Below are positions 1,549-57,816 of a stretch of DNA of 64,000 bases, one piece after another. The notes below the pieces were generated by a model. It ran no database searches and had not been told where the DNA came from. It saw nothing but the letters and a program-made list of their open reading frames with translations. The position numbers were made by a program, and so were the translations under genes. Source of the DNA: Candidatus Woesearchaeota archaeon (GTDB taxonomy: Archaea; Nanobdellota; Nanobdellia; Pacearchaeales; GW2011-AR1); the NCBI GenBank assembly GCA_964594115.1, contig CAZQLD010000002.1, positions 10,450 to 74,449 of the forward strand, in the 5' to 3' direction. How positions within the stretch are numbered: the stretch's first letter is position 1; the number at the start of each line of letters is the position of its first letter.

Positions 1549-1721
1549 GCTCCTGTAGTGTAGTGGCCAAGCATACGGGCCTCTCGAACAGGGAGTTTAC
1601 TTGATGAAAGGATAACTCTGTCTGCTTGGACAACTGTAATCTCTGGCGAAAACCAGAAGGTGAGTGTTTTTGCACTCTAAGGAGAACGCCCGTGACCCGG
1701 GTTCAAATCCCGGCAGGAGCA
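1549..1721 (+). tRNA. tRNA-Glu (anticodon CTC) with ~100-nt intron in the anticodon loop
   Basis: 5' exon GCTCCTG-TA-GTGT..GCAT-A-CGGGC-CTCTCG (1549-1586). 3' exon GCCCG-TGAC-CCGGG-TTCAAAT-CCCGG-CAGGAGC-A (1688-1721). The acceptor pairs perfectly. The intervening ~101 nt are unpaired intron. Confidence 0.7.
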
Positions 1722-11374: not shown

Positions 11375-11478
11375 GCCTCAGTAGCTCAGTTGGTTAGAGC
11401 GTTACCTTGGTACTGTAGGGAAACTTGGATATCTTGCTGAAAAGGTAGAGGTCCTGAGTTCGAATCTCAGCTGAGGCT
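11375..11478 (+). tRNA. tRNA-Thr (anticodon GGT) with ~30-nt intron after position 37
   Basis: GCCTCAG-TA-GCTC-AGTTGGTTA-GAGC-G-TTACC-TTGGTA then intron [CTGTAGGGAAACTTGGATATCTTGCTGAAA] then A-GGTAG-AGGTC-CTGAG-TTCGAAT-CTCAG-CTGAGGC-T. Confidence 0.7.
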
Positions 11479-30600: not shown

Positions 30601-32708
30601 TGACTAACACTCTGAATAACTTCACAACTCTTGATTTAAGTACAGAAGGAAACATAATGCAGTTTATCTCATATGAAAGTGATAAGATTGATATAAAAGG
30701 AAAAGAGAGTAGAGATGTTCTAATAACAATTAGCATTCCTGAACTAACAGACCAAGGGACTTATGAGGGAAGTTTGGTTTTGAGTTCTGGAAATAAAACT
30801 GGAAAAATACCTACAACAATCAAGGTTCTTTCACTTGAGGGAAAATTATTAGATGTGAAAATACAGCCTTTGAATACACGGGTTTCACCTGGTTCAATAT
30901 TAAAATTACAGAGAGATTTGGTTAATGTTGGAAAAACAATCAGGGTTAGTGGGTTATTTGATTTGCAACTTTTAGAGGTGAATACAGGAGAGATTATGGC
31001 AAGAAACGAAGAAAGATTTATGGTAGAAACAAGTGTGAGTGATATTAAGGAATTAGAGATTCCTAAGAAAATAAAAGAAGGAGAGTATATGGTTAAGGCT
31101 GTTGCTCATTATTCTACTATGGATAAAGATATGCAGGCAACTTCTATTGCCCATATTAGTGTAGCTTATCCTTTTTTAAGCAGGAGATTTTTGTGGCTTC
31201 CTTTGTGGTTTTACTTATTGTTGATTTTAATGATTGTCTTTTTGATTGGAACATATTCTTATGCTAAATGGCGTGAATTTAGAAAAAAGAGATTTAAGGT
31301 TAAGGTAGCCCTCAACAAGCTTCCCCAAGCAGGACCAAATTCAGGATTTATTGGAAAGATTGCAGAAATAGGGGCTAGAGCGTTTGTTAATTTGAATAAT
31401 TTACAAATGCATACATTAATTGCAGGAGGTACTGGCTCTGGTAAAACTATTGCTGCCCAAGGAATTGCAGAAGAAGCTCTGCTCCATAAAAAGAGTGTTA
31501 TTGTTTTTGATCCTACTGCCCAGTGGACTGGGCTTTTAAGAGCTTGTAAAGACAAAGGAATGTTAAGAAGGTATAGTTATTTCAATATGAAGACAAAAAA
31601 AGCAAGAGGATTCAATGGAACAATCAAAACAATACATGACCCTTATGAATTAATAGATATAGGGAAATATATGAATAAACCCGGAGAAATAACAGTATTT
31701 AATCTAATTCATTTAGCTCCAAAAGAAATTGATATTGTTATTTCAAGTACAATTGAGCAAATTTTTAAGTTAGAACCAGAAGAAAGCAAAAGTTTGAAGA
31801 ATCTAATTATATATGATGAAGTTCACAGACTTCTTCCTAAATTCGGAGGAAGTGGAGAAGGTTTCCTACAGCTGGAAAGAGGGGCAAGAGAATTTAGAAA
31901 ATGGGGGGTTGGTTTAGTTTTAATAAGCCAGGTATTAAGTGATTTTATTGGAGAGATTAAAGCTAATATTGGAACAGAGATTCAGTTGAGGACAAGATAT
32001 GAAGGAGATTTAGAAAGAGTTAATATGAAATATGGAGATGATATATTAAAATCTGTTGTTAAAGCGCCTATTGGAACTGGAATGGTTGTTAATGCAGAAT
32101 ATAATAATGGAAGCCCTTATTTTATTGCGTTTAGGCCTGTATTGCATAGCACTAAGAGATTGACAAAACCAGAATTGGAAAAATATGAAAAGCATTTTGA
32201 AGAAGCAGAAGACATAGAATATCAAATTAATCAATTGAGGACACTTGGGGCTGATGTGTTGGATTTAGAATTAGAACTAAAACTTGCAAGAGGAAAGATA
32301 AAGACAGGGCAGTTTCCAATGGCTGATATGTACCTTCAGATATTAAGACCTAAATTAGAAGAAAGTTGGATGAGTGTTGGAAAAAAGCCAAGACATTTGG
32401 TTAAGAAAAAGATAAGCAGAGAGGAAATTGTAGGAGGAATTGCTAAAGCGAAGGAAGAAAGGGTAAAATATATAAAGGAAAATCCCGAAGAAATAATAGA
32501 TATAGGACGAGAAATTTCAAAATTAAAGAAGAAATTAGCAGAAAAAAAGAGGAAAGGCGGAGATAAGAGACTTATTTCAAACATTGATTCCTGGATACAT
32601 GCTCTAAAAGAGAGAATAAAGCCATTTAAAGGAAAGATAAACACAGAAGACTCTGAAGTAATTATGAAGGCATTGGAGTCTGTAGGAAAAGAAATAGATA
32701 AATTGTAA
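21693..32708 (+). CDS. giant (3,671 aa) membrane protein: N-glycosylated Ig-like-repeat ectodomain fused via TM helix to a C-terminal cytoplasmic FtsK/HerA/VirB4-class P-loop ATPase
   Basis: The ORF is uninterrupted for 11 kb in an AT-rich background. TM1 is 'HLIGILLLLIIGILLV' (aa ~55-75). Ectodomain repeats include CRAS...DVDC repeats (x5) and NATL[YF][IV]WDS repeats (x3). A poly-Gly linker spans ~30426-30473. TM2 is 'WLPLWFYLLLILMIVFLIGTY' (~31188-31255). Walker A 'MHTLIAGGTGSGKT' (~31419-31451). Walker B 'LIIYDEVHRLLP' (~31802-31837). 'LISQVLSDFIGEIKANIGTEIQLRTR' follows. Confidence 0.7.
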   Translation: MVYKKYIKRGNKRFGPYYYESYRDKDGKVRTRYIGETIYCKSSKKGLDKVKTKHLIGILLLLIIGILLVRVLPLLEDSERTIGIKGGLRDLEKTGFSEEARAPIVGLAVSGETPVEMSTKKIEVKTKRYSVVINRPVKWVKTVKVDDKTDIENLTLEIPKEAEFINIKTAEEVQEVLENITDYNKEIKQLDKRDLKQGEVSLAALKTRTSLVLKIVNWVKDSRAKIVGYVLEEWEIEEGIKKTKDETVIELGRVVELEKQVEDILEKQAEAEIAVEYLTEGPQSVEEELPNGKRIRITAADEFEYKDILAYTELDNSISMQDVEKAKLYWYISEEDLKLIEEIPKTLEEVSNFEETEEIDVEFVKEREEIIGETKEIEEVVTISEENITEEIVEQPTSLENTSEETEIPTLGPLNKLVEWTKWIYGPEIVGSATAQETELEKKLIKVPVEFEAYDLDEDGNVDYIEWIVPYLSEQVYEFVIEIAKAEHLDENKNFIADIYSVVSEKDNVWGTVGNNEYLRIIFEQPLKSKDDITVYMKAGQPAEIEVYEGNTEELIAVFESIQEENLYKVYLTNLREESYYIFDLKIKGEVEFDSVYGTVWKEVCDEKEICVYESEKEGIKAEIGNKDREDKEYEPHLKLSKWNNEVLFKIKPDSENSISKITGSVVSEKIKEIRWDKPKIKGEDSVDMSSELKEVEWHYEEIGDFPVLKMDEIIKQKPDTNIFSYKIESENLDYYYQLPLYLEYGLTEPNSTCNATNCQGAYRPVNVVGSYAVYHKTKANNEYKTGKAFHIYRPKIYEKNNENNWIWGDLNIDEEQGILTITIEQNWLDNADYPIVIDPVFGYQTVGGSMAKLSTYQGEEYGNTPRGSLFTMPEIGWVDSISAYIHMYSNDLGHAGAIYKHFDSSKVGQTETVLLLGDSTVSWRTFNFNPPASVSNIDYVLVVHQWTGGYYTNLYYDSGTTNQGHYRDAEHAESLPSPLSFIHDNKKCSIYATYTIPDIIPPIISIVSIGGDSSSPYSTSDNTPLAVITTNENADCRASRDGDESYDSMSDDVDCSGDGGKSHNCQFGLLSDGSPTVYFACRDTIGNKNTASNNKQTAVQIDTNPPTQSNHNPAKGSTINTKSPTITFTTNELGDCRASLLDESYDSMSNDVDCTSGTSTSHSCSMSGLSEGSEVVYIACKDDTSVSPNKDTVASNEHVNYIVDAVAPIVTINSIGGDTSPPFNISDISPSVSATTNENADCRASNDGDESYDSMSDDVDCSGDGGTSHTCNFGIIGAGTHIISVSCRDSVGNKNTAGDNDNEQVEIDNSAPIVTINSIGGDTSPPFNISDISPSVSATTNENADCRASNDGDESYDSMSDDVDCSGDGGTSHTCNFGIIGAGTHIISVSCRDSVGNKNTAGNNDNEQVEIDNSVPTQLNHNPAKGSTISTKSPTITFNTNEIGDCRASLSDESYDNMSNDVDCTSGASTSHSCSMSGLSEGSEVVYIACEDDTSVSPNKDTAASNEHVNYIIDTSAPAVQFVFPTTQSGSYSQNYIKANVTANDPSLADITVYLYFQFGLLQSSSINSPLFVEFTPLSEGTYYLNATAIDTLGNRGSSETRTIILDRSDPTITLISPVNGDVRTTPLFNFAADFNDRALKNATLYVWDSSRNIVNITTTALSGTSDSASIPVTLPYEDTFYWNYYACDDLGNCRFSNVNWSVTYVTIKIGLDVIWPPGNVDVSQNQLFNVTLKVSCSGADCGDVDVSLDPDVKLQIENLEDVFFGSSLGDQYSAVKFDIGSVPQNMVIENAFLALYVSETGSGLDSDVKYYRINNQGWTEGNTAGAMWNLRNSRDTGKTDNSAFSSTGWTYLDVTEAVRKEYESGNKNVSFWLEDPDNAADVPTNSYGGEDYLRIGKGVSNFFHRFYSKEHTGVSNRPYLNIIYRKGLIPTTPSVPFYTIYNNPIRISLFAGDTKLVIFWVNATGSGTWNFFAYVNKTNAMSISNITSFWNVTIIDVTNPTIKLTSPINGEQIQSSPVNFKANFYDAGLKNATLYIWDSNGINYTQTIALSGTSDSASIPVILGDGNYKWNYQACDVGDNCISNNINWTFSLDATPPEVNLLSPPDNLTITSQQTFSFEANFTDINLKNATLFIWDSTNSIVHKQTDTFLGNYGYSNISVTLPDSGTFYWNYYACDGLGNCRFSNVNWSLILGSVPITNTPVLTNVNPQLGPSSDLNCSFVITDSNPSDPLAANVRWYRNGVEESAVNVNVQNGVMHSVILDSNYINAWENWTCSVIPYDGSAFGILKNSNHVFIKALLDIQYSSSKQDLGTIINYSISANLINKHTAQLETGDILIEVSNSSGVQAAGICVSSSSCFRSWFVPISLGYGIYLVNITGSNKTHYLSKSVSFSDSISLWSWNVNPSSLDKIKAIGSQGILEIIDVNNMGSEIMDFNILSNNPSIIWPDVSFLQVPPDQKNSFTLNYSAPAKGTYSINVSVRNQEVTAVPRELNVIINFTSADLKVNLISPTNQIPLTNVSIAQKVEIITNASYEGAPIINDSTWIIKIGGRDCGDITYFYDFINAYWNISCSAPDVPDDRPHPLEAVMLSNEYGEVSYSEDDVVYYRDTSPPVFENIFRNNININGLINLIANVSDNLGVKYVVANITDPNSSSFECNMTNIGGLWFCNSIILNLAGEYIVDYIASDVSGNTGYAQDWFEVYDRYFWAVSLVDYNSTPVSNVSISLSRPYTGPVLVSNITNAFGKANFYVNKRKYDIRGGISGDEFIVREIDFVNSSNPIYLNFYRYKGELGEVIPLHRFDEISSFGIVSNSTNMDSNLVTLIFNYSSLINNVNSLTNLEIMQCSVWDYAARSCLGVWQALSSSRDIDVKTITGNSTGFSAYFLTENTCGTGGCEPAFGEAVGNCGDCIAGGGGPSGGGGGGGGGGSISRSQVTQITESLIKVGGVRIDTSSIYEELFPGETTTINIKLTNTLNNFTTLDLSTEGNIMQFISYESDKIDIKGKESRDVLITISIPELTDQGTYEGSLVLSSGNKTGKIPTTIKVLSLEGKLLDVKIQPLNTRVSPGSILKLQRDLVNVGKTIRVSGLFDLQLLEVNTGEIMARNEERFMVETSVSDIKELEIPKKIKEGEYMVKAVAHYSTMDKDMQATSIAHISVAYPFLSRRFLWLPLWFYLLLILMIVFLIGTYSYAKWREFRKKRFKVKVALNKLPQAGPNSGFIGKIAEIGARAFVNLNNLQMHTLIAGGTGSGKTIAAQGIAEEALLHKKSVIVFDPTAQWTGLLRACKDKGMLRRYSYFNMKTKKARGFNGTIKTIHDPYELIDIGKYMNKPGEITVFNLIHLAPKEIDIVISSTIEQIFKLEPEESKSLKNLIIYDEVHRLLPKFGGSGEGFLQLERGAREFRKWGVGLVLISQVLSDFIGEIKANIGTEIQLRTRYEGDLERVNMKYGDDILKSVVKAPIGTGMVVNAEYNNGSPYFIAFRPVLHSTKRLTKPELEKYEKHFEEAEDIEYQINQLRTLGADVLDLELELKLARGKIKTGQFPMADMYLQILRPKLEESWMSVGKKPRHLVKKKISREEIVGGIAKAKEERVKYIKENPEEIIDIGREISKLKKKLAEKKRKGGDKRLISNIDSWIHALKERIKPFKGKINTEDSEVIMKALESVGKEIDKL
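25319..25942 (+). repeat. two tandem ~312-bp copies (~99% identical) inside the giant ORF
   Basis: 25319-25630 and 25631-25942 differ at only a few bases near their 3' ends. Antisense ORFs 25402..25632 and 25714..25968 give identical peptides, which confirms the duplication. Confidence 0.85.
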
Positions 32709-49258: not shown

Positions 49259-49960
49259 TTATTCTTTTTTGGCTATTTGGAAGAAATATTCTACTTCTAC
49301 TTTTTTTGTTAATGGGATAACTTTCTTTTCATAGAACTCAGAAATAAAATCTGGATTAACATGATATCTTGCTCCTTTTGATTTTACTCTTTCTAAAACT
49401 TCTGCTTCTACTTTTTGATTTGTGAGTTTTTCCATTATTCCTGCAGTGTTTCCAGCTCTAATTAATTTATCATATCCTGTGGGATCTTGTTGATATTTTG
49501 CTTCTGCAACCTGCTCTCCTATATGAACTCTTTTTGATAGATTCTGTAGGCAGTTAATATCTGCGATAGCTGCACCTCCATATGTATTGTCATCATCTCC
49601 TATTTTACAGATTGTAGGCAAAGCTTTCATGTATATTTTTAGTAATTCATCATTAAAATTTGTCTTTTTTCTTATTCCAACATCTGTTACTGTTCTTTTT
49701 ACTACAGAGCTAGGAAGGTTTTTATAAAAAGGATGTTCTTCTGGATCCTGATATCTTCCTGCTTGTGCATGAAGTTTTTCTGTTCCTCTAAAAAGAAATT
49801 CAAAAAAACTTCCATCAAAATTAGGTATTTCTACTTCCCCTGAAACATAAATTTTGTTGTTTAATTTAAATCTTGCCCTCCTAAATAAAGAAATAATTAT
49901 ATTATCTTCTAATTCCCTTAGTGTATTTCTTACTCTGTTTAAGTCAACTTTTTGGTTCAT
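49259..49960 (-). CDS. chorismate mutase, eukaryotic AroQ (yeast ARO7-like) type
   Basis: Collinear, as I recall the S. cerevisiae Aro7 sequence. 'LNRVRNTLRELEDNIIISLFRRARF' vs 'LQNIRDELVRMEDSIIFKFIERSHF'. 'GDDDNTYGGAAIADINCLQNLSKRVHIGEQVAEAKYQQD' vs '[39 protein letters not shown]'. 'GIMEKLT...VLERV' and 'VIPLTKKVEVEYF'. Confidence 0.7.
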   Translation of the reverse strand: MNQKVDLNRVRNTLRELEDNIIISLFRRARFKLNNKIYVSGEVEIPNFDGSFFEFLFRGTEKLHAQAGRYQDPEEHPFYKNLPSSVVKRTVTDVGIRKKTNFNDELLKIYMKALPTICKIGDDDNTYGGAAIADINCLQNLSKRVHIGEQVAEAKYQQDPTGYDKLIRAGNTAGIMEKLTNQKVEAEVLERVKSKGARYHVNPDFISEFYEKKVIPLTKKVEVEYFFQIAKKE

Positions 49961-51114
49961 TCTAGTATAGATTTAATAGGTTTATTTAATATAAACTTTT
50001 CTATATTTTTTCTAGCTTCAGGTAATCTTTTTTGATGGTCTGAAAGCCAGTCTGTTACTTCCTCTATCCCGTATTTTTTACACTCTCCACAAAGCATTGC
50101 TCCTGAAGCGCATTGTTCAGCAACATGATTATCTTGTTCAAAATGATACCTTCTTATAGACTCTATTGGGCATATTTCTGGGACTCCTCCATGTTCTTTT
50201 TGGAAGCGGGCTATTGGACTCCCCCCTGTATAGGCACGTTTAAGAATTCTTTCTGCCTTTTCTGGAGGGTCGGTTAGAAAAATAGCAGAGTCTTGCCTGC
50301 TTGAAGCCATTTTTCCTTTTCCATCAAATCCCCATAAAAATTTTGTTATGAGTTCTGCAGGAGGAATAAATCCTTTTCTTTCTGCTACATCTCTTGCTAA
50401 TAGGATATAAGGATGCTGGTCTATTCCTACTGGAACAAGGGTTGGTTTTTTTCCTCCGAATTCCGCATATTGTGGAAGAAGAATTTGAGCTAATTGAACT
50501 GCTGCTCTGTAAAACAGGGTTCCTGGATTTTCAGTATCAGTTCTTTCATTAAACCCGAAGACTTTAAGTGCTTTATTTAGTGTGAGTTTATCTGATAAGT
50601 CCATAGCAACATTATAAATTGAGGGATAATCAGAATCCACAAAAATATTAGTTTTTTCAGGGTCAAAACCCATTGCAATAATGCTTGGTATAACTTGTTC
50701 ATAAGCAATTTTTCTAGATTCTGCAAGACTTTTTGTTTTTCCTACAACAAAGCTTTCATCATTTGTTAAAGGAATAAAGAGGTCTGCTCCTTGTTTTTGC
50801 ATCCATAAAAGCTCATCAAATATAGCTTTATGGCCAAAATGTAAGGGTCCTGAAGGATTTAATCCAGATATAACTGCCCAGGTTTGTTTATTTGCTATTG
50901 CTTCTGCAATCATCTCTAGGTCTCTGTGTGCAAAAGTTATGTTCATTTTCATATACTTGCTTGGATTAGGGCAATACTTAACAAATCTGATAATTGTTTT
51001 TAGTCCAGACTCTGCTATTTTCTGAGGATAATAAGCTTCTTCTTTTTCTTTAAGCTTAAGCTTTGCCTTATGGTCTTTTTTAGCTATTTTTTCTAAATCT
51101 ATTTTATCTGTCAT
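49957..51114 (-). CDS. trpS: tryptophan--tRNA ligase (archaeal/eukaryotic type) with C-terminal Cys4 motif
   Basis: HIGH is 'GLNPSGPLHFGH'. 'VPVGIDQHPYILLARDVA' is TrpRS-like. KMSKS is 'GKMASS'. C-terminal C-x19-C-x6-C-x2-C. Confidence 0.7.
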   Translation of the reverse strand: MTDKIDLEKIAKKDHKAKLKLKEKEEAYYPQKIAESGLKTIIRFVKYCPNPSKYMKMNITFAHRDLEMIAEAIANKQTWAVISGLNPSGPLHFGHKAIFDELLWMQKQGADLFIPLTNDESFVVGKTKSLAESRKIAYEQVIPSIIAMGFDPEKTNIFVDSDYPSIYNVAMDLSDKLTLNKALKVFGFNERTDTENPGTLFYRAAVQLAQILLPQYAEFGGKKPTLVPVGIDQHPYILLARDVAERKGFIPPAELITKFLWGFDGKGKMASSRQDSAIFLTDPPEKAERILKRAYTGGSPIARFQKEHGGVPEICPIESIRRYHFEQDNHVAEQCASGAMLCGECKKYGIEEVTDWLSDHQKRLPEARKNIEKFILNKPIKSILE

Positions 51115-51913
51115 TTTCTATATTTTGTAATAATCCCAAAATAAATTTTATATTTTGGTTTATTAGGTTTATGTTTACATTTGAAATATCATCTTTTGTT
51201 GTCTGCATTTTGTGCCAAGACCCTTCATCATATCTTGTTAATACACTAGCTTCCAAGCCTAATTTTAAGAATGAAATGTTGTCTGCATTTGGGCTATTAG
51301 GAAGTAATGGGATAGTTATGTTTTTTGATTTAGCATGGTTTATGATTAATTTATTAAGTTTTTGACTATTCTCATATTTTTTCCCAGTTTTCTCAAAAAC
51401 TTGAAAATTACCCTTGCCAACTGCTTGGACTATTATTGTTCCATTGTAAGAATCTATAAATTCGATTTCTTTGTTAAGAATATGTTCTAAAAATAATTCA
51501 GAACCTGGTTTAAATTCAGGATTTCTTCTGTTTTTGGCTATAAGATCAGTGTCAAGACCTGCATCAAAATAAATTAGCCTTATATTTACTGGAAATTGCG
51601 AACCAATCAGTTTTTCAGATAATCCTAAGAGAGTAATAACTCCACTAGAATTATTATTTGCTGAAGGCATTCTTTCAAAAGTGTCATAATTTGCTGTTAA
51701 CCATAATTCTTTCTTATGGTTGTAATTGAATGCAACAGAAAGATGAACATCTACTCCTCTTGGAGAATCTAGAGAATAGATAGTGGGTTTTAGTCCTAGT
51801 GAAGCAAGTTCCTCTTTAATAACCCCAAGTCTTTCAGAAGTATTTTTTTCAATAAGTTTTTTTAGTGTTTGATAGTGATTATTTTGTGCCATTTTAAAAT
51901 TTTGATAACACAT
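51104..51913 (-). CDS. M28 Zn-aminopeptidase-like protein with substituted metal ligands
   Basis: 'LTANYDTF...ANNNSSGVITLLGL' aligns to M28 'AHxDS...GAxDDxSGVAxLLE', with His->Asn and Asp->Asn. Confidence 0.3.
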   Translation of the reverse strand: MCYQNFKMAQNNHYQTLKKLIEKNTSERLGVIKEELASLGLKPTIYSLDSPRGVDVHLSVAFNYNHKKELWLTANYDTFERMPSANNNSSGVITLLGLSEKLIGSQFPVNIRLIYFDAGLDTDLIAKNRRNPEFKPGSELFLEHILNKEIEFIDSYNGTIIVQAVGKGNFQVFEKTGKKYENSQKLNKLIINHAKSKNITIPLLPNSPNADNISFLKLGLEASVLTRYDEGSWHKMQTTKDDISNVNINLINQNIKFILGLLQNIENDR

Positions 51914-52898
51914 TAGTTTCTAGGGACTGTGAAACTTTTTCTTTTAATTGATTAGGATTTATGTTTCCAGAATAAAATTCTTGTGCCAAAGTAACTGGTG
52001 AATCATTTTTTTCTAATCTTTTTCTTGCCATTTCACAAATTAATCCTATATCTAATACAGGATTTGGAAGTTCTGGATTAGTTGATATAAATGAGCTATT
52101 AATTAGTTCTTTTGCATAGTCTAATTGGGTTCTTCCCACCAATATTCTGTGATTTTGGAGTCTTTTACTTCCTCCTTTATAAGCTGTTATTCCGTGATGT
52201 TCTATTCCTTTATTAGAGAAAAAATAATCCCATTTTTTTCCTAATGGAAAAGTCGGAGTTAAAAACAAGGATATTAATCCTCTTGAATTTTCTATTTTTG
52301 CTATTTGTCTTGCAATAGTATCATATAAATCTTCTCTTGGAGGGCCTACTTTTATATCAAGCCCCATAATAGTTGTTATTTCATCAAAAGAGTACATAAA
52401 CCCTTTTGCTCTTTCTAGTTCTAGTTTAGATTTAGGTACACTTTTTTCAATTTTTGCCATTAAGCCAGAATTTGCTTTACAAATCTCCATTACTTTTTTT
52501 AATTCTGTTTGAAATGCTTTTGTGTTAATATAATCACTCATTTTCAATACTTTTAGATTTGTTTTGTATATTTTATTTACAGCAAGAACAAAAGCTGCTC
52601 TTCCTTCTCCTAATCTTTTGTATTTATGTTCAAGTTCTGGAGAAACATTTCTGCATGCTGCACTATCTGCAACCAGAATTGTAGGTTCTGCTTTAAATCC
52701 TTCTTGTGTTAAAGACTGAGCCAGATTTGCAACAAAAAAATAGTATTTCATACTATCAATAGTATGGCCTGTATGATCATAAGTTTCTCCATAAAATAGT
52801 TTAATTGGAGATACTTCTTTTGCTCTTGTTAGAATCTTTTTTATACTGGGAGTTTTTAGGACAATTCCTTTTTGAGATAATAAAGATTGTGGTTTCAT
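51894..52898 (-). CDS. TyrRS-like class-I aaRS paralog 1 (degenerate)
   Basis: 'FYGETYDHTGH' (HxGH-like) and 'ILVADSAAC' (TyrRS 'ILLADLHAY'). No clear KMSKS. Paralogous to 52951..53958. Confidence 0.35.
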   Translation of the reverse strand: MKPQSLLSQKGIVLKTPSIKKILTRAKEVSPIKLFYGETYDHTGHTIDSMKYYFFVANLAQSLTQEGFKAEPTILVADSAACRNVSPELEHKYKRLGEGRAAFVLAVNKIYKTNLKVLKMSDYINTKAFQTELKKVMEICKANSGLMAKIEKSVPKSKLELERAKGFMYSFDEITTIMGLDIKVGPPREDLYDTIARQIAKIENSRGLISLFLTPTFPLGKKWDYFFSNKGIEHHGITAYKGGSKRLQNHRILVGRTQLDYAKELINSSFISTNPELPNPVLDIGLICEMARKRLEKNDSPVTLAQEFYSGNINPNQLKEKVSQSLETNVLSKF

Positions 52899-52950
52899 TT
52901 TATTAACTATAAAGTAATTACATATTTAAAAATATATTGGTTTTAGAATA

Positions 52951-53958
52951 TTACTCAAGTCTGTATGGCATCCTGCTTGTCTTTGTTAAGAACTGGTGAT
53001 ATCCTTCTACAGCCTGTTCTCTTAGTGCTTGCTGGTCTAATTTTGGAAGTGTACTAAAATCTGTTTGAGATATTTCTTTTCTTAAGCGATGGCCTGCAAG
53101 ATCTGCTGTGACTATTAAATTTACTAAAGCTCTTTTGTCTGTAGTTGTTCTTATAAGTTCTATAACCTCTTTGGGGTCATCATTTAAAGGGTCTATTCTA
53201 TAATCTCCTAGGCCTTTGCTATTTTTCTTATAAGGCAAAACCCCAAATTTATTTACCCAAGCTCTTTCTCCTTCAGGAATCTCAGGATTTCCAAAAGGCA
53301 GGCAGTTTGTTAGGTGGATTGCAATATATTTTTCAAATCCTATTTGTTCAAAAAACTCTCTTGCAACAAAATCATAAAATATTTCAGATTTTGGCCCAAC
53401 TTTAATATTAGTTTTTAGGGTTTGTATTGTTGCAAGTTCTTCTAAAGGATAATTTATAGCTTCTGGATTTTCTCTTCTATCTTCAGGAATAGCTAGTAGA
53501 ACTTTCTCTTTAAACTCAGGATTTAATTTGATTTCTTCTTTTAATCTTTTTGTGTTTCTTTGATAATCTCCGCCTTTACTTAATTTAGAGGTACGCAAAA
53601 GACAGATATTTCCATGATATATTGTGTTTAAATTTTGCAAGAAGTTTATTCTTTCAAGCCCTTGGGATTTTGCTTGTTCCTGAGCTAGGTCTTTATTTAA
53701 GTCAGTCATAAAATGGTCTGCAATAATCCATTGTGCTTCTGCATTCACACCTTTTTTTGTCAAAAGATCATGCAAGTCCATTAAAAATAGTCCGTACTTC
53801 ATCATATCTAGTGTCTGCCCAGCATCAAATGTCACTCCCATTATTATTTTGGCTTTATCTCCTTTTGAAAATTGTAATATTTCTTTCACATCTAGAATTC
53901 TTGCTACTAGTTCTTTTCTTGATAGATAATTTTCAATTGTTTTATCCATTTTACGCAA
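52951..53958 (-). CDS. TyrRS-like class-I aaRS paralog 2 (degenerate, HIGH lost)
   Basis: 'IIMGVTFDAGQT' replaces HIGH. 'WIIADHFMTDL'. 'NIKVGPKSEIFYDFVARE' matches paralog 1 'DIKVGPPREDLYDTIARQ'. Remnant 'KKNSKG'. Confidence 0.35.
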   Translation of the reverse strand: MRKMDKTIENYLSRKELVARILDVKEILQFSKGDKAKIIMGVTFDAGQTLDMMKYGLFLMDLHDLLTKKGVNAEAQWIIADHFMTDLNKDLAQEQAKSQGLERINFLQNLNTIYHGNICLLRTSKLSKGGDYQRNTKRLKEEIKLNPEFKEKVLLAIPEDRRENPEAINYPLEELATIQTLKTNIKVGPKSEIFYDFVAREFFEQIGFEKYIAIHLTNCLPFGNPEIPEGERAWVNKFGVLPYKKNSKGLGDYRIDPLNDDPKEVIELIRTTTDKRALVNLIVTADLAGHRLRKEISQTDFSTLPKLDQQALREQAVEGYHQFLTKTSRMPYRLE

Positions 53959-55318
53959 TAAGTTTATCTCTCATAGACTCCACCATATTAAACCATTGTG
54001 TTTGGGTTCTTTTTGATGCATCAACAACAGCTTTTTTAGGAGTATTCCAAAATTCTGGCCTAGGAATTGCACCATCAATCTCCCATCCTCCTCCCTGTCC
54101 AATGCTTCTTGTTCTTGATAAAGCATAATCTAAAACTATTTGTCTTTTTTTCTGATGTTCTTTTAGTGCTTCAGGAAGGCTTTCTCTTACTAGTGCAACA
54201 TTATCTTGTCCTGCTTTTTTACAATAATTAATTAAATATTTGTCTATTAACTCAGATTTCTTCTCTGCATCTTGTTCCCTTTTTATATTATTAGGAAGAG
54301 CCTTCAATGCTTCTGGAAAATTAACTTGACTTTTTGCATTAAAAAACTGGATATATCTTACCATATCTAACGCACAATTTTTTACTTCTTTTTTCAATTC
54401 TGGATCTTTAAGTGCATTATCTATTTTTATGATAGAGGACTTTATTCTTGTTTCAATATCTTCTTTATTAGGTCCTGGACCAAGGTATAAAGTGGACTCA
54501 GGCTTACTTGAGCTCATTTTTGGCCCTAATCCTCTCATATGTGGGATGTAAAATCCAGAGGATACTGTTTGAATTCCAGGTAGCTTTAACTTACTTTCAA
54601 ATGCCTTTTTCATTAATTCTATTGCCATTTTCATGTGTCCGTCTTGGTCTTGCCCACTAACCATAAAAGAGTGTTGATTGCTAAAATCTGAATGTTGTGG
54701 GAGTGCTATGTCTCCTACTTGTGCTACTCCTGCAAATAAGAAAGCAAATTTTTTAGATAGTTTATCAAGTCCATAAGTATCAAGTGCAAGGTCAAAACTT
54801 AAACCTCTAGCGAACAAGTATGCTAAATTACCTACTCTAAATTCTTCAGATTGTAAGTAAATATGTGCTGCATCTAGGTCGACTCTGTTTGCTCCCCAGT
54901 CAAGCAGATTATCTGCTGCCCAAAATTTATACTGCTTTTCTGTTAGTTCCGAATCTAACATGCACTCAAGGTCTGCTACTGGCATAAATATTTGGGCTCC
55001 GTTTTTTTGAAAAAACGCAACACCAGAAGAGGTTTGGGTGTGCCCAAAATGAAATGCTCCACTTGGTTTAAATCCAGAGGCAATTCCAAGTGATTTTTCT
55101 TGTTCTAATGCCTTTATTAATTCAGAACCATTTCTCTGTCTAATGGCTCTATTTTCTACAGGAAGCGATATTTCATCAAGTTTAGCTAAAAGAGTGTATA
55201 ATTTTTTACTAGCAGGCTTTCCTTCAGAAGTTAGATAGGCAGCTTCATAACCTCCTGCACCTCCAGCTTGTTTTTCTTCAAATTCTATCATATACCTTTT
55301 AGTTTCTATTTTAGGCAT
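53951..55318 (-). CDS. tyrS: tyrosine--tRNA ligase (archaeal type, extended)
   Basis: HIGH is 'GFKPSGAFHFGH'. 'MPVADLECML' (TyrRS ADLHA). 'VSGQDQDGHMKMAIEL'. KMSKS is 'PKMSSSKP'. Confidence 0.7.
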   Translation of the reverse strand: MPKIETKRYMIEFEEKQAGGAGGYEAAYLTSEGKPASKKLYTLLAKLDEISLPVENRAIRQRNGSELIKALEQEKSLGIASGFKPSGAFHFGHTQTSSGVAFFQKNGAQIFMPVADLECMLDSELTEKQYKFWAADNLLDWGANRVDLDAAHIYLQSEEFRVGNLAYLFARGLSFDLALDTYGLDKLSKKFAFLFAGVAQVGDIALPQHSDFSNQHSFMVSGQDQDGHMKMAIELMKKAFESKLKLPGIQTVSSGFYIPHMRGLGPKMSSSKPESTLYLGPGPNKEDIETRIKSSIIKIDNALKDPELKKEVKNCALDMVRYIQFFNAKSQVNFPEALKALPNNIKREQDAEKKSELIDKYLINYCKKAGQDNVALVRESLPEALKEHQKKRQIVLDYALSRTRSIGQGGGWEIDGAIPRPEFWNTPKKAVVDASKRTQTQWFNMVESMRDKLIA

Positions 55319-55533: not shown

Positions 55534-56613
55534 ATGGATGTTAATAATCTTTTGAGGCAAGAAATACAGGAGTTTGAAGATAGGGAGTATGCTCCTAAAA
55601 AGAAAGATTTAGATAAAAAATGTGATTTATCTTTAAATATAAACCCCTTAGGAGCTTCTCCTAAAGCTGTTTCTAGGTTAAAGGAGTTTGATTCCAGAAA
55701 ATTAAGTCATTATTATCCTGAAAATATGGAGCTTTTAAGTGAAATTGCTTCTTATGTAAATCTAAATACTAATCAGATAATGCTTGGAGATGGGTGTGAT
55801 GGATGTTTACAAATGATTGCAAGCACATTTATTGATAAAGGAGATGAGGTTATTATTCCTACTCCTACTTTTCATAGATATGAATTTCACGCAAAAATAA
55901 TGGGTGGAGAGCCTATTTTTGTTCCTATGGAAAATTTTGAATTAAATCCAGAACATATATTTAATAAGGTTACTGAAAAGACTAAAATTTTATTCTTGTG
56001 TAACCCAAATAATCCTACAGGAATAGGAATAAGTAAGGGGGTAAAAGAAGAGGTAATAAAGAATTTTAAGGGGATTGTTGTTGTTGATGAAGCTCTTGCA
56101 GATGCAACTGGGATAAATGGGGCTTCATTATTAGAAAAATATGATAATCTTATCGTTGCGAGATCTTTTTCTAAGACTTTTGGATTAGCATCTCTTAGAA
56201 TAGGATATATTTTATCAAATCCTAAGATTATTGAGCAAATTAAAAAAACCTCTTCTCCGTTTAGAGTTAATGGTGTTGCCCAAGAGTTATCTATAGAATC
56301 TTTGAGAGATAAAGAACATATTAACAAATCAAAGGAGTATATTGATAAAAACAGAGAGTTTTTAATTTCAAATCTTAATAAAATGGGGTTGAAATGTACT
56401 AAGTCTATTACAGCTAATTTTTTAGTAGATATATCTAAAATTTCTAATGATTCTACAGAGTTTGTAAAGCAGTTTAAAGAAAAAGGAGTATTAGTAACAG
56501 ATGCTAAAGTATTTAGGCTTTCTAAAAATACTTTTGTTAGGGTTTCTGTAGCTAGTGAGGAAGAAAACAAGAAATTTATAGAGATTTTATCAGAAAAATT
56601 AAATAATCTTTAA
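55534..56613 (+). CDS. class I/II PLP aminotransferase (HisC / aromatic aminotransferase-like)
   Basis: 'FLCNPNNPTG', 'VVVDEA', 'ARSFSKTFGLASLRIGYILSNPKII' (Lys in SFSK). Confidence 0.6.
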   Translation: MDVNNLLRQEIQEFEDREYAPKKKDLDKKCDLSLNINPLGASPKAVSRLKEFDSRKLSHYYPENMELLSEIASYVNLNTNQIMLGDGCDGCLQMIASTFIDKGDEVIIPTPTFHRYEFHAKIMGGEPIFVPMENFELNPEHIFNKVTEKTKILFLCNPNNPTGIGISKGVKEEVIKNFKGIVVVDEALADATGINGASLLEKYDNLIVARSFSKTFGLASLRIGYILSNPKIIEQIKKTSSPFRVNGVAQELSIESLRDKEHINKSKEYIDKNREFLISNLNKMGLKCTKSITANFLVDISKISNDSTEFVKQFKEKGVLVTDAKVFRLSKNTFVRVSVASEEENKKFIEILSEKLNNL

Positions 56614-57816
56614 TTCTTTCTCACTAACCATCTTTTCTTTACCTGTTTTCATATTCCTTAATTTTATTTTTCCTTTTTTAACTTCTTGTTCTCCAAGAAA
56701 AATCACATAAGGGATTTTTAAGGAATTTGCATATTCAAGTGCTTTTCCTGGTTTTCCATAATAAATCTGACAAGGAATAGAGAGATTTCTTATTTTCTCT
56801 GCTAATGAGATAGCTTTTTTATCCTGGTTTAAAGAGATAATTAGGATTTGTTTTTTTGTAGGATCAATTTTAGTTAATAATGCTAATCTGTCTAAACCAA
56901 AAGAGATTCCTGTTGATTGAACGCCATTAACCATATATGAGCCTCCAGCAGCAGAAATTCCAATTCTTTTTAATTTTTCTACATAGGCTTTAATTTCAAA
57001 GACTGTTCCGTTATAGTATGAAAGGCCTCTTGCAACAAAAGGTGAAAAATTGAATTTAACATTATAGATATTACAATATTCCCTTAGTTTTTTGATTTCA
57101 GAGTAGGCTTTGTATTTTTTAAAATATTTTTCAGGTTTTTTGAAAATTGAAAGAATCTTATCTGCATTGTATTTTTTTAAGCCAGTAGAATATTTTTTTA
57201 AATTCTTTTTTATTTCAGATTCTGGAAGTTTATCAAGTTTATCAATTTCTTTTATAATTTTTATCTTATCTTTTTCTTTAATTCTTAGTTCTTCTAGAAT
57301 TTCATTTAAAAGTTTTCTATTATTAACATTGATTGTGAATGTAATTCTTAGTTTGTTAAATATTTTAGATACTATTTTCAAAATTTCAGCTTCATCTTTT
57401 ATTGTTGAGCCCACTATATCTGCATCACATTGTATAAATTGCCTGAATCTTCCGCTTTTTACAGGCTCGTCTCTGAAAACAGGGCCTATTTGATATCTTC
57501 TGTATGGGAGTTTTTTGTTTTTTGCAAGACGTTTGAGTTGGAATGTAAATTCGTATCTTAAAGCAAGTTTTCTTTTTCCCTTATCTTGAAGTTTAAATAT
57601 GTCACCTACTGCCTCATCATTTTCATTGTTTGATTTAACAAATTTTTCATACTCTATTATGGGTGTTTCAACTGGCTGGAAATTGTAAAGCTGAAAGGTA
57701 TTTTCAATTATATTCCTTATAGCAATTCTTTTGCTTGCTTCAATATCTCTAAATCCTTTTACTGTGCCTAAGACACCGGTGGTTTCTTTAGGCTTCAACT
57801 TCCTTTTATTCACCAT
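56599..57816 (-). CDS. hisS: histidine--tRNA ligase
   Basis: Class II. 'GPVFRDEPVKSGRFRQFIQCDADIVG' is the HisRS motif 2 region. 'AAGGSYMV' is the His-binding region. Confidence 0.75.
   Translation of the reverse strand: MVNKRKLKPKETTGVLGTVKGFRDIEASKRIAIRNIIENTFQLYNFQPVETPIIEYEKFVKSNNENDEAVGDIFKLQDKGKRKLALRYEFTFQLKRLAKNKKLPYRRYQIGPVFRDEPVKSGRFRQFIQCDADIVGSTIKDEAEILKIVSKIFNKLRITFTINVNNRKLLNEILEELRIKEKDKIKIIKEIDKLDKLPESEIKKNLKKYSTGLKKYNADKILSIFKKPEKYFKKYKAYSEIKKLREYCNIYNVKFNFSPFVARGLSYYNGTVFEIKAYVEKLKRIGISAAGGSYMVNGVQSTGISFGLDRLALLTKIDPTKKQILIISLNQDKKAISLAEKIRNLSIPCQIYYGKPGKALEYANSLKIPYVIFLGEQEVKKGKIKLRNMKTGKEKMVSEKELKII

What the first reader, a model, noticed from the sequence alone, without database searches (positions are those of the whole stretch)
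49259..49960. Eukaryote-type (ARO7-like) chorismate mutase in an archaeal genome, next to trpS/tyrS and an aromatic/HisC-like aminotransferase
The 233-aa protein is collinear with yeast Aro7 as I recall its sequence, over the whole length including the regulatory-domain region. Archaea normally carry ~90-aa AroQ-alpha or AroH enzymes, so the 250-aa allosteric AroQ-gamma type is considered eukaryotic. No other shikimate-pathway gene is visible in the window, and this lineage appears biosynthetically minimal. The gene sits with TrpRS, TyrRS and a class I/II aminotransferase at 55534..56613. That suggests a salvage route (chorismate or prephenate from the host converted to Phe/Tyr) or an old lateral transfer relevant to eukaryogenesis debates.
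Basis: partly seen in the sequence, partly recalled or inferred. Interest (0 to 1): 0.6.

Follow-up and report, generated by a model that had tools for sequence, protein, structure and literature searches.

The report
Yeast-type chorismate mutase in DPANN archaeon
A tiny symbiotic-type archaeon really does carry the large "yeast/plant-style" chorismate mutase, but this enzyme family also occurs in many bacteria, so it is an unusual placement of a known enzyme and not a clue to the origin of eukaryotes.

Summary
ORF 49259..49960 (-) encodes a 233-aa protein that matches the plant/yeast chorismate mutase family over its whole length (TIGR01802 209.5 bits, cutoff 170.9; yeast Aro7 E = 1.6e-42). 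Its AF2 model (pLDDT 95) superposes on Aro7 at TM 0.92-0.94. The yeast catalytic residues are all present.

The contig is archaeal (S27e, S24e, Spt4, Rpb7, intron-containing tRNAs). Relatives occur in Nanoarchaeota, Woesearchaeota and Micrarchaeota MAGs.

The interpretation needs correcting:
- This subclass is AroQ-beta, not gamma.
- It is not eukaryote-specific. Bacterial clades exist, one of them in a CM-tyrA-aroA operon, and NCBI already annotates such proteins as chorismate mutase.
- In an NJ tree the DPANN sequences are neither nested in eukaryotes nor their sister. PVC-type bacteria are the group most similar to eukaryotes. The backbone is unresolved.

What stands out is the context. The CM overlaps the stop codon of a TrpRS gene (ATGA). 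In 11 of 14 DPANN-type loci it sits directly beside class-Ic aaRS-type genes, often with a HisC-like aminotransferase. Most of that aaRS cluster matches the TrpRS-A / TrpRS-A-like / ORF1 cluster described in 2017, whose function is unknown. No prephenate dehydratase, prephenate dehydrogenase or shikimate gene was found nearby.

The physiological role remains inferred.

The parts
49259..49960 (-). Chorismate mutase, AroQ-beta (yeast/plant) type, 233 aa. It is the short form lacking the yeast '220s' loop.
   Evidence: TIGR01802 209.5 bits vs cutoff 170.9. PDB Aro7 1.6e-42. AF2 pLDDT 95.1. TM 0.92-0.94 to Aro7. Catalytic residues R11, R144, K155, N181, E185, T218, E222 correspond to yeast R16, R157, K168, N194, E198, T242, E246.
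49957..51114 (-). Tryptophanyl-tRNA synthetase, 385 aa (HFGH and KMASS motifs). Its stop codon overlaps the CM start codon (ATGA). Probably the 'TrpRS-A2' of Mukai et al. 2017.
   Evidence: TIGR00233 228.6 bits vs 176.75, but below the cutoffs of all archaeal PRK12285 equivalogs. The junction sequence was read directly. It is adjacent to the CM in L011, L012, L026 and L033. The TrpRS-A2 assignment is an inference from the description in PMC5370408.
51104..51913 (-). M28-peptidase-like protein, 269 aa, inserted into the cluster in this genome only.
   Evidence: Pfam Peptidase_M28, E = 7.4e-06. No counterpart in the related loci screened by BLASTP.
51894..52898 (-). 'unkA': a very divergent protein with a TyrRS fold, 334 aa. 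The HIGH position is not conserved; a KMSKS-like 'YKxGSKxL' motif is conserved. Probably an 'ORF1' of Mukai et al. 2017.
   Evidence: No Pfam, NCBIfam or PDB sequence hit. Profile search hits only A. pernix TyrRS, E = 0.019. AF2 pLDDT 92.8. Top 50 Foldseek hits are all TyrRS, TM 0.6-0.69. More than 200 homologs at 54-85% identity, all 'hypothetical protein' in Nanoarchaeota/Woesearchaeota MAGs. Fused to TrpRS in L020.
52951..53958 (-). 'unkB': paralog of unkA, 335 aa. In related loci it lies next to the 455-aa TrpRS-like gene.
   Evidence: 29% identity to unkA, E = 9e-26. Orthologs in L006, L011, L026 and L031.
53951..55318 (-). TrpRS-like paralog, 455 aa (HFGH and KMSSSKPES motifs retained). 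Probably the 'TrpRS-A-like' of Mukai et al. 2017.
   Evidence: Pfam tRNA-synt_1b 65.9 bits. Scores far below the cutoffs of the TrpRS NCBIfam models. P. horikoshii TrpRS 3jxe, E = 1.6e-16. 48-58% identical orthologs in L006, L011, L026, L030 and L031.
55534..56613 (+). HisC-family class I/II aminotransferase, 359 aa. A candidate aromatic or prephenate aminotransferase.
   Evidence: Pfam Aminotran_1_2, E = 1.7e-57. TIGR01141 hisC 274.2 bits vs cutoff 276.55. Orthologs at the edge of the same cluster in L011, L030 and L031.
56599..57816 (-). Histidyl-tRNA synthetase, a neighbour. In L006 its ortholog lies directly upstream of the CM.
   Evidence: Pfam tRNA-synt_His and HGTP_anticodon. L006 HisRS is 60% identical and sits 50 nt upstream of the CM.

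Best explanation
The gene encodes a genuine, catalytically competent chorismate mutase of the AroQ-beta (yeast/plant, TIGR01802) family. It belongs to an old DPANN-archaeal branch of a family that also has bacterial and eukaryotic branches. [quoted passage not shown] It is cytosolic. It retains the residues that bind aromatic-amino-acid effectors in the fungal and plant enzymes, but it has lost the yeast 220s loop, so allosteric control is possible but unproven. In this lineage the gene is the last cistron of an operon of aromatic-amino-acid aaRS-type genes: TyrRS-fold ORF1-like protein -> TrpRS -> CM, together with a TrpRS-like paralog, a second ORF1-like paralog and a HisC-family aminotransferase. 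It is translationally coupled to TrpRS. Most likely physiological role (inferred, not shown): together with the HisC-like aminotransferase it forms a shortened route from externally or host-supplied chorismate/prephenate toward Phe/Tyr, co-regulated with the enzymes that charge aromatic amino acids. Shown here: family membership, fold, catalytic residues, archaeal host, operon linkage, and absence of other pathway genes in the vicinity. Inferred: enzyme activity, effector binding, substrate source, and pathway partners.
For: Family and fold. Catalytic set across the 54 DPANN-type sequences: positions equivalent to R16 53/54, R157 54/54, K168 54/54, E198 54/54, T242 54/54, E/Q246 54/54, N/D194 50/54. 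Effector-site residues: ScR76 = R69 in 52/54; ScG141 = AtCM1 Gly213 = G128 in 51/54; AtCM1 Gly149 = G68 in 52/54. Gly213 is reported as essential for allostery in PMC11171525. Cytosolic: no hydrophobic segment, maximum 19-residue Kyte-Doolittle score 0.48. Native gene: GC 0.30 and GC3 0.15, like its neighbours; the identical protein with the same neighbours occurs in several samples. DPANN hosts: Nanoarchaeota, Woesearchaeota and Micrarchaeota MAG contigs. Operon: ATGA overlap with TrpRS; gaps of -29 to +52 nt in the window, L011, L026 and L031; a class-Ic aaRS-type gene directly adjacent to the CM in 11 of 14 DPANN-type loci; HisC-like in or at the cluster in the window, L011, L030 and L031. 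Bacterial family members sit in a canonical aromatic operon (CM-tyrA-aroA) or next to trpA/trpB, which supports true CM function for the family. Most Woesearchaeota MAGs lack the shikimate pathway (PMC10936187).
Against: No activity data exist. No prephenate dehydratase, prephenate dehydrogenase or arogenate enzyme was found in the 40 window ORFs scanned or in any of the DPANN-type loci, so the proposed route lacks a step. A source or transporter for chorismate is unknown. Only 64 kb of the genome was visible, so the rest of the pathway could lie elsewhere. In the window protein ScS142 is Gly, ScT145 is Ile, and the 220s loop (which holds yeast Thr226) is deleted, so yeast-like allostery is uncertain. 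The HisC-like gene could simply be a histidine-pathway enzyme: it lies beside HisRS, and L006 has HisG and PRA-PH fragments.
Confidence: 0.55

Rival explanations
1. It is an ordinary biosynthetic CM. The organism has a complete (or host-complemented) aromatic pathway encoded elsewhere in the genome, and the position next to TrpRS is only operon shuffling in a compact genome.
For: Bacterial members of the family sit in canonical aromatic operons. Only 64 kb of the genome is visible. Some DPANN genomes do carry CM with pheA/tyrA (nanohaloarchaeon, PMC10266531). 'Most', not all, Woesearchaeota MAGs lack the pathway.
Against: The linkage to class-Ic aaRS-type genes recurs in 11 of 14 loci, across sequences as divergent as 43-45% identity and across Nanoarchaeota, Woesearchaeota and Micrarchaeota-like contigs. 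That is too persistent for chance shuffling. No aro, pheA or tyrA gene occurs in any DPANN-type locus.
Confidence: 0.25
2. The protein has been repurposed. It acts mainly as an aromatic-amino-acid-binding or regulatory partner of the TrpRS-A / ORF1 aaRS-like system (for example as a Trp/Tyr sensor or complex subunit), or it acts on a chorismate-related substrate, and prephenate synthesis is secondary.
For: It is translationally coupled to TrpRS. The conserved core is ORF1-like -> TrpRS -> CM, with ORF1-like and TrpRS fused in L020. The effector-site residues are conserved. The pathway context is missing. The function of the aaRS cluster itself is unknown (PMC5370408).
Against: The full catalytic residue set is under strict conservation in all 54 DPANN-type sequences, which is hard to explain without catalysis. 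There is no evidence of a physical interaction. The CM is absent from many genomes that carry the ORF1-like family (more than 200 unkA homologs, versus about 54 DPANN-type CMs).
Confidence: 0.12
3. It is a recent lateral transfer from a eukaryote (fungus, plant or protist) into this archaeon, or eukaryotic contamination of the assembly.
For: The best-characterised homologs are eukaryotic, at 35-42% identity.
Against: The flanks are archaeal and the CM overlaps the TrpRS reading frame. Composition is fully host-like. There are 54 DPANN-type sequences with mean internal identity of only 39.7%, spread over at least three DPANN phyla. They are not nested within fungi, plants or any eukaryotic subgroup in the tree.
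Confidence: 0.02
4. DPANN or other archaea are the source of the eukaryotic CM, making this an archaeal contribution at eukaryogenesis.
For: The DPANN enzymes share the 'eukaryotic' active-site configuration (Arg at the ScR16 position, Asn/Asp at the ScN194 position), unlike the 44-member bacterial group, which has Ala and Arg at those positions.
Against: A PVC-type bacterial group has the same configuration and is much more similar to eukaryotes (46.5% versus 37.6% for DPANN). The NJ backbone is unresolved (bootstrap <= 10-19). No Asgard-named member appeared among the named hits listed.
Confidence: 0.04

Closest known systems
Saccharomyces cerevisiae Aro7 / Candida albicans Aro7p (AroQ-beta prototype; PDB 1csm, 2csm, 7rj1)
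   Same: Collinear over the full length. 34-36% identity. TM 0.92-0.94, rmsd 1.5-1.6 A. All seven catalytic residues are present. The effector-site Arg (ScR76) and Gly (ScG141) are present.
   Different: About 23 residues shorter. The 220s loop, which carries yeast Thr226, is deleted. ScR75 is Gly (as in plants), ScS142 is Gly, ScT145 is Ile. The host is an archaeon and the gene sits in an aaRS operon, not in a regulated biosynthetic network.
Plant plastidial CMs (AtCM1 PDB 4ppu/4ppv; Physcomitrella 5w6y; maize 6hjw)
   Same: Best sequence hit in the PDB (5w6y, 7.5e-44). The 'AQAGRY' motif is identical. Both glycines reported as allosteric determinants (AtCM1 Gly149 and Gly213) are present as G68 and G128.
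   Different: No transit peptide. Shorter loops. Regulation is untested.
Bacterial full-length AroQ-beta-like CMs (e.g. MGD9200018.1 Chitinispirillia; Smithella, Spirochaetales and Verrucomicrobiota MAG proteins; P0332 in a CM-tyrA-aroA operon)
   Same: Same family and length class (~245 aa). Prokaryotic. Annotated 'chorismate mutase' by NCBI.
   Different: The 44-member bacterial group has Ala at the ScR16 position and Arg at the ScN194 position, and it sits in canonical aromatic-pathway contexts. The PVC-type group resembles eukaryotes more than DPANN does. Neither group is linked to aaRS genes in the loci examined.
TrpRS-A2 / TrpRS-A-like / ORF1 gene clusters of DPANN archaea and CPR bacteria (Mukai, Reynolds, Crnkovic & Soll 2017, PMC5370408)
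   Same: The description matches the CM's neighbours: a non-canonical TrpRS, a TrpRS-like gene with indels, and co-evolving unknown ORFs with KMSKS-like motifs and no BLAST similarity. [quoted passage not shown]
   Different: That paper does not mention chorismate mutase or the aminotransferase. It reported 12 instances, and its homology model lacked a Rossmann fold. Here the ORF1-like protein models as a complete TyrRS-type fold, the family has more than 200 members, and CM plus the HisC-like gene are recurrent cluster members. The equivalence was judged from the description, not by sequence comparison.
Secreted effector CMs (Ustilago maydis Cmu1, PDB 6fpf; nematode and AroQ-gamma *MtCM-type exported CMs)
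   Same: A CM carried by an organism that lives on a host. Cmu1 shares the general fold distantly (TM 0.59).
   Different: There is no signal peptide or hydrophobic segment. The protein is far closer to housekeeping Aro7 than to Cmu1. There is no evidence of export.

Membership tests
AroQ-beta chorismate mutase (TIGR01802 CM_pl-yst; yeast/plant type) | Full-length match to the family model above its curated cutoff | tested here: met
   209.5 bits vs cutoff 170.9, residues 6-228 of 233 on profile positions 2-244 of 247.
AroQ-beta chorismate mutase (TIGR01802 CM_pl-yst; yeast/plant type) | Two-lobed, roughly 12-helix all-alpha fold of about 250 aa, superposable on ScCM | tested here: met
   AF2 pLDDT 95.1. 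Foldseek TMq 0.92-0.94, rmsd 1.5-1.6 A to 1csm and 7rj1 over about 240 columns.
AroQ-beta chorismate mutase (TIGR01802 CM_pl-yst; yeast/plant type) | Catalytic residues equivalent to ScCM Arg16, Arg157, Lys168, Asn194, Glu198, Thr242, Glu246 | tested here: met
   R11, R144, K155, N181, E185, T218 and E222, from the HMMER alignment to 2csm. Conserved in 50-54 of 54 DPANN-type sequences.
AroQ-beta chorismate mutase (TIGR01802 CM_pl-yst; yeast/plant type) | Allosteric effector site and switch (ScR75/R76, G141, S142, T145, 220s loop; AtCM1 Gly149/Gly213) | tested here: inconclusive
   R69 (=ScR76), G128 (=ScG141/AtG213) and G68 (=AtG149) are present. S142 is Gly, T145 is Ile, and the 220s loop is deleted. 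The yeast residue roles are from my own knowledge of Strater et al. 1996 (paper not held).
AroQ-beta chorismate mutase (TIGR01802 CM_pl-yst; yeast/plant type) | Chorismate-to-prephenate activity; homodimer | not testable with these tools
   Needs an enzyme assay, genetic complementation and an oligomeric-state measurement.
AroQ-alpha (short EcCM-type, ~90-aa domain) plus an unrelated fused domain | Similarity confined to one three-helix CM_2 domain, with the rest unrelated | tested here: not met
   Pfam CM_2 covers 133-222 only, but the N-terminal half aligns to the Aro7 regulatory lobe in both sequence and structure. Short AroQ 3rmi scores E = 5.
AroQ-gamma (exported *MtCM-type) and secreted effector CMs | N-terminal signal peptide / export; *MtCM- or Cmu1-like fold | tested here: not met
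   No hydrophobic N-terminus (first 30 aa mean Kyte-Doolittle score -0.68; maximum window 0.48). Cmu1 reaches only TM 0.59. Nomenclature from PMC7762937.
TrpRS-A / TrpRS-A-like / ORF1 cluster (Mukai et al. 2017), for the neighbouring genes | Non-canonical archaeal-type TrpRS plus a TrpRS-like paralog plus a co-evolving unknown ORF with KMSKS-like motif, in DPANN/CPR | tested here: inconclusive
   The gene content and properties match the published description. No sequence from that paper was available for direct comparison.

The most novel reading that the evidence does not exclude
[quoted passage not shown] It would let pathway-less DPANN archaea turn imported chorismate or prephenate into aromatic amino acids and load them on tRNA. 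The TyrRS-fold paralogs would stand in for the missing dehydratase/dehydrogenase step, or would act on a tRNA-bound or enzyme-bound precursor, analogous to the tRNA-dependent Asn, Gln and Cys routes.
Probability: 0.06. Interest if true: 0.8.

Novelty: new member of a known kind. Interest (0 to 1): 0.35.

Why it matters
Three points follow. (1) The textbook label 'eukaryotic-type' for the large allosteric chorismate mutase is misleading. The family has deep branches in bacteria and in DPANN archaea, so finding it in a prokaryote is not by itself evidence of transfer from eukaryotes or of eukaryogenesis. (2) A biosynthetic branch-point enzyme is retained, with an intact active site, in genome-reduced archaea that mostly lack the pathway feeding it. 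It is also welded to an enigmatic cluster of extra TrpRS- and TyrRS-like genes. That gives a concrete handle on what the cluster does, pointing to aromatic amino acid supply or sensing. (3) The short, loop-less DPANN enzyme is a natural minimal AroQ-beta scaffold for asking which parts of the yeast and plant enzymes are needed for allostery.

Tried and rejected
- Genome-collection scans with the broad alignments A1 and A2 failed because no conserved stretch was found. Only the narrow DPANN alignment A3 worked.
- The AFDB50 fold search, which would have given organism names, was not available.
- The Strater 1996 paper on the yeast allosteric site is not held, and a text search for Arg76/Gly141 found nothing. 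The yeast effector-residue roles therefore rest on my own knowledge, plus the plant Gly149/Gly213 statement in PMC11171525.
- The promoter/terminator scan was uninformative: counts equalled shuffled expectation, and it uses a bacterial consensus on an archaeon.
- Single-sequence PDB searches with unkA and unkB gave only noise. The profile search gave one marginal TyrRS hit. Only the AF2 model plus Foldseek settled the fold.
- Only NJ trees with Kimura-corrected distances could be built. Backbone bootstraps are <= 10-19, so I draw no rooted or directional conclusion from them.
- Contamination, a recent eukaryotic transfer, a secreted-effector role, and a 'short AroQ plus unrelated domain' architecture were all considered and rejected (see the rival explanations and membership tests).
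- dN/dS was not attempted. The closest pair is 72% identical at the protein level, so synonymous sites would be saturated.
Full report

Yes. An ATG-initiated ORF of 233 aa occupies 49259..49960 on the minus strand. Pfam sees only a CM_2 domain in the C-terminal half (residues 133-222, 48.6 bits). The NCBIfam equivalog TIGR01802 'CM_pl-yst' matches residues 6-228 at 209.5 bits against a curated cutoff of 170.9. phmmer against all PDB sequences returns only plant and fungal chorismate mutases as significant hits. Physcomitrella 5w6y scores 7.5e-44. Yeast Aro7 (2csm/4csm) scores 1.6e-42 and aligns 5-228 to 10-252.

An AlphaFold2 model built on a 99-sequence alignment has pLDDT 95.1 and pTM 0.92. 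It superposes on Candida Aro7p at TMq 0.94 / rmsd 1.5 A, on yeast 1csm at 0.92 / 1.6 A, and on AtCM1 at 0.89. A short AroQ (3rmi) reaches only E = 5. The protein is therefore collinear with the yeast enzyme through both the 'regulatory' and the catalytic lobes.

**2. Whose gene is it?**

The window has about 31-32% GC throughout. It carries intron-containing tRNAs (173-nt and 104-nt Rfam tRNA matches), PheRS alpha and beta, and ribosomal proteins S27e and S24e, Spt4 and the Rpb7-like RNA polymerase subunit within about 5 kb of the CM. This is an archaeon.

The identical protein occurs with the same neighbours on contigs from several independent JGI and SRA samples. Its GC (0.30) and GC3 (0.15) are like those of the flanking genes. 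Its start codon overlaps the TrpRS stop codon (…GAATGAAC…). Contamination and recent import are excluded.

A scan of species-representative prokaryotic genomes with a DPANN-clade alignment found relatives of 43-56% identity in MAGs labelled Nanoarchaeota, Ca. Woesearchaeota (two) and Ca. Micrarchaeota.

**3. Is the type 'eukaryotic'?**

Two corrections are needed.

The first is nomenclature. In the accepted scheme the 12-helix yeast enzyme is the prototype of AroQ-beta. AroQ-gamma is the exported bacterial *MtCM type (PMC7762937).

The second is distribution. An exhaustive profile search of 1.84 billion cluster representatives found 390 representatives at E <= 1e-30. A second profile search found 719 proteins at E <= 1e-20. 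These include NCBI-annotated 'chorismate mutase' proteins from Verrucomicrobiota (45% identical to the window protein), Smithella, Spirochaetales and Chitinispirillia MAGs.

I checked contexts:
- P0332 lies on a 197-kb bacterial contig in the operon CM - prephenate dehydrogenase (with ACT domain) - EPSP synthase.
- P0089 lies beside trpA/trpB.
- P0260 and P0270 lie on contigs with typical PVC and other bacterial genes (SBP_bac_10, LpxA-type acyltransferase, bacterial topoisomerase I).

The family therefore has bona fide bacterial branches working in the classical pathway.

**4. Phylogenetic position**

I built NJ trees with 100 bootstraps, on 252 and then 337 domain-trimmed sequences. All 68 named eukaryotes fall in one cluster of 210 sequences. 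Next to it is a group of 29 short proteins that includes the two verified PVC-type bacterial members. A separate bacterial group of 44 has bootstrap 59. About 54 DPANN-type sequences form several groups outside all of these. Backbone support is poor (<= 10-19%), so no rooting or direction of transfer can be claimed.

Mean identities tell the same story:

| Comparison | Mean identity |
|---|---|
| PVC-type group vs eukaryotes | 46.5% |
| Eukaryotes vs eukaryotes | 46.2% |
| DPANN vs eukaryotes | 37.6% |
| DPANN vs DPANN | 39.7% |

The DPANN sequences are thus an old or fast-evolving, internally deep set. They are not nested in any eukaryotic lineage and are not the closest prokaryotic relatives of eukaryotic CMs. 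No Asgard-labelled protein appeared among the named hits that were listed, but the searches were not designed to exclude Asgard members.

**5. Is it likely to be an active, regulated CM?**

Using the HMMER alignment to 2csm, the query residues R11, R144, K155, N181, E185, T218 and E222 correspond to yeast R16, R157, K168, N194, E198, T242 and E246. Across the 54 DPANN-type sequences these positions are R 53/54, R 54/54, K 54/54, N or D 50/54, E 54/54, T 54/54, and E or Q 54/54. Conservation this strict argues for catalysis.

The 44-member bacterial group instead has Ala at the R16 position (38/44) and Arg at the N194 position (43/44). This is an apparent relocation of the arginine. The DPANN and PVC-type groups share the 'eukaryotic' arrangement.

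At the effector site:
- ScR76 corresponds to R69 (52/54).
- ScG141 corresponds to G128 (51/54).
- The 64-residue spacing between the GRY and YGS motifs in plant sequences shows that AtCM1 Gly149 and Gly213 correspond to G68 and G128. Gly213 is reported as essential for allosteric regulation and Gly149 as setting effector specificity (PMC11171525 citing Westfall 2014).

Against yeast-like allostery, the window protein has Gly for ScS142 and Ile for ScT145, and the whole DPANN group lacks the 220s loop that carries yeast Thr226. Effector binding is therefore plausible, but switching is uncertain.

The protein has no hydrophobic segment, so it is not a secreted effector like Cmu1 or the nematode CMs.

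**6. Genomic context, the distinctive part**

In the window the minus-strand block 49259-55318 reads, 5' to 3':
- TrpRS-like (455 aa)
- unkB (335 aa)
- unkA (334 aa)
- M28-like peptidase
- TrpRS (385 aa)
- CM

Gaps range from -20 to +52 nt. A HisC-like aminotransferase and HisRS lie beyond the block.

BLASTP synteny against 13 further DPANN-type loci gives:

| Locus | Gene order |
|---|---|
| L011 | HisC-like - TrpRS-like - unkB - unkA - TrpRS - CM, all collinear |
| L026 | unkA - TrpRS - TrpRS-like - unkB - unkA - TrpRS - CM |
| L031 | HisC-like (divergent), then CM - TrpRS-like - unkB - unkA |
| L030 | HisC-like (divergent), then CM - TrpRS-like |
| L012, L033 | unkA - TrpRS - CM |
| L006 | HisRS - CM, facing unkB - TrpRS-like - TrpRS - unkA |
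| L020 (Micrarchaeota-like) | TrpRS-like - [unkA::TrpRS fusion, 745 aa] - CM |
| L009, L032 | CM beside a more divergent TrpRS |
| L014 | TrpRS-like and a canonical synt_1b gene within 4 kb |
| L021, L029 | none (the upstream flank of L029 is cut off) |

A class-Ic aaRS-type gene is directly adjacent to the CM in 11 of 14 loci. No locus gave any hit to prephenate dehydrogenase, EPSP synthase, TrpA/B, or the PDT half of CM-PDT fusion proteins. None of the 40 window ORFs scanned carries a shikimate- or prephenate-pathway domain. Published surveys report that most Woesearchaeota MAGs lack the shikimate pathway (PMC10936187).

**7. What are the unknown neighbours?**

unkA and unkB are paralogs (29% identity, E = 9e-26) with no Pfam, NCBIfam or PDB sequence hit. 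A profile of both hits only A. pernix TyrRS, at E = 0.019.

unkA has more than 200 homologs of 54-85% identity. All are 'hypothetical protein' in Nanoarchaeota or Woesearchaeota MAGs. Its AF2 model (pLDDT 92.8) matches only tyrosyl-tRNA synthetases in the top 50 PDB hits. These include A. fulgidus, N. equitans, M. jannaschii and the Leishmania pseudo-dimer, at TM 0.6-0.69 and 13-16% identity. The HIGH position is not conserved, but a KMSKS-like YKxGSKxL motif is invariant.

The 455-aa protein keeps HFGH and KMSSSKPES and resembles archaeal TrpRS (3jxe, E = 1.6e-16).

This matches a published description. Mukai et al. 2017 (PMC5370408) reported non-canonical TrpRS-A2, 'TrpRS-A-like' and a co-evolving unknown 'ORF1' in DPANN archaea and CPR bacteria. 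They stated that the functions are unclear, suggested involvement in 'tryptophan metabolism and encoding', and proposed a possible heterodimer with ORF1. That paper never mentions chorismate mutase, and its homology model lacked a Rossmann fold. The equivalence is my inference from the description.

New here:
- the complete TyrRS-type fold of the ORF1-like protein;
- the unkA::TrpRS fusion in L020, which supports their heterodimer idea;
- the recurrent membership of CM and the HisC-like aminotransferase in the cluster.

**8. Most likely mechanism and role**

Shown: an AroQ-beta family CM with an intact active site, native to a DPANN archaeon, cytosolic, and the last cistron of an aromatic-aaRS-type operon.

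Inferred: it converts chorismate to prephenate. With the HisC-family aminotransferase it would provide two steps of a shortened route to Phe/Tyr from externally or host-derived precursors, co-expressed with the Trp/Tyr charging machinery. (From my own knowledge, HisC doubles as the aromatic aminotransferase in Bacillus subtilis.) Its effector site may sense aromatic amino acids.

The weak points are the missing dehydratase/dehydrogenase step, the unknown source of chorismate, and the fact that only 64 kb of the genome is visible.

Rivals:
- an ordinary pathway encoded elsewhere in the genome (0.25);
- repurposing as a ligand-binding partner of the aaRS-like system (0.12);
- an archaeal origin of the eukaryotic enzyme (0.04);
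- recent eukaryotic transfer or contamination (0.02).

**9. Novelty and score**

The protein is a new, archaeal (DPANN) member of a known enzyme family that annotation pipelines already recognise. Literature searches found no report of this family in DPANN archaea or of its linkage to the TrpRS-A/ORF1 cluster. The eukaryogenesis implication is not supported. The conserved operon linkage, and the retention of a branch-point enzyme in pathway-poor genomes, are moderately interesting and experimentally tractable. Interest 0.35.

Noticed in passing
window 51894..52898 (-) and 52951..53958 (-): Two paralogous ~335-aa proteins with no family hit. unkA models confidently as a complete archaeal-type TyrRS fold but lacks a conserved HIGH motif. 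Its family has more than 200 highly conserved 'hypothetical' members in Nanoarchaeota/Woesearchaeota. They probably correspond to 'ORF1' of Mukai et al. 2017. No canonical TyrRS was seen in the 40 window ORFs scanned, so one of them could be this lineage's TyrRS, or a subunit of it.
   Followed up: yes
L020 2040..4277 (+) (GCA_009712145.1 VFSW01016437.1): A 745-aa protein fuses an unkA-like TyrRS-fold domain (residues 29-361) to a TrpRS domain (residues 424-731), directly upstream of the CM. This Rosetta-stone fusion suggests that the ORF1-like protein and TrpRS work together physically.
   Followed up: partly
L026 354..7773 (+) (SDBV01012033.1): Seven co-directional, nearly abutting genes: unkA - TrpRS - TrpRS-like - unkB - unkA - TrpRS - CM. 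The unkA-TrpRS pair is duplicated within one operon.
   Followed up: partly
44-member bacterial group of the CM family (e.g. P0098, P0332, P0089): The active site is rearranged. Ala replaces the N-terminal catalytic Arg (ScR16 position) in 38/44 sequences, and Arg replaces ScN194 in 43/44, as if the arginine had moved to another helix. Pfam CM_2 often fails to detect these proteins.
   Followed up: partly
window 53951..55318 (-): A 455-aa TrpRS-like paralog with intact HFGH and KMSSSKPES motifs. It scores far below every TrpRS and TyrRS equivalog cutoff. Its amino-acid specificity is unknown.
   Followed up: partly
window 51104..51913 (-): An M28-peptidase-like gene inserted between TrpRS and unkA, overlapping both. 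It is absent from the corresponding position in all related loci.
   Followed up: no
window 21693..32708 (+): A single giant ORF of 3671 aa. It was not analysed. A neighbouring 1047-aa ORF (6175..9318) has CBM96 and Ig-like domains, which suggests large surface proteins.
   Followed up: no
window 1549..1721 (+) and 11375..11478 (+): Rfam tRNA matches of 173 and 104 nt that ARAGORN did not call. They are presumably tRNA genes with long or non-canonical introns.
   Followed up: no
L006 8226..9951 (+): A very short HisG-domain ORF (93 aa) and a PRA-PH ORF (99 aa) sit directly upstream of HisRS and the CM. Amino-acid-pathway fragments lying next to the cognate aaRS may be a wider pattern in these genomes.
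   Followed up: no
P0120 (Chromera), P0154 (Vitrella), P0121 (Arcella), P0275, P0296, P0299: Eukaryotic protist members of the family are fused to a prephenate dehydratase domain (PF00800), giving 500-660-aa proteins. This is an AroQ-beta version of the bacterial P-protein.
   Followed up: no
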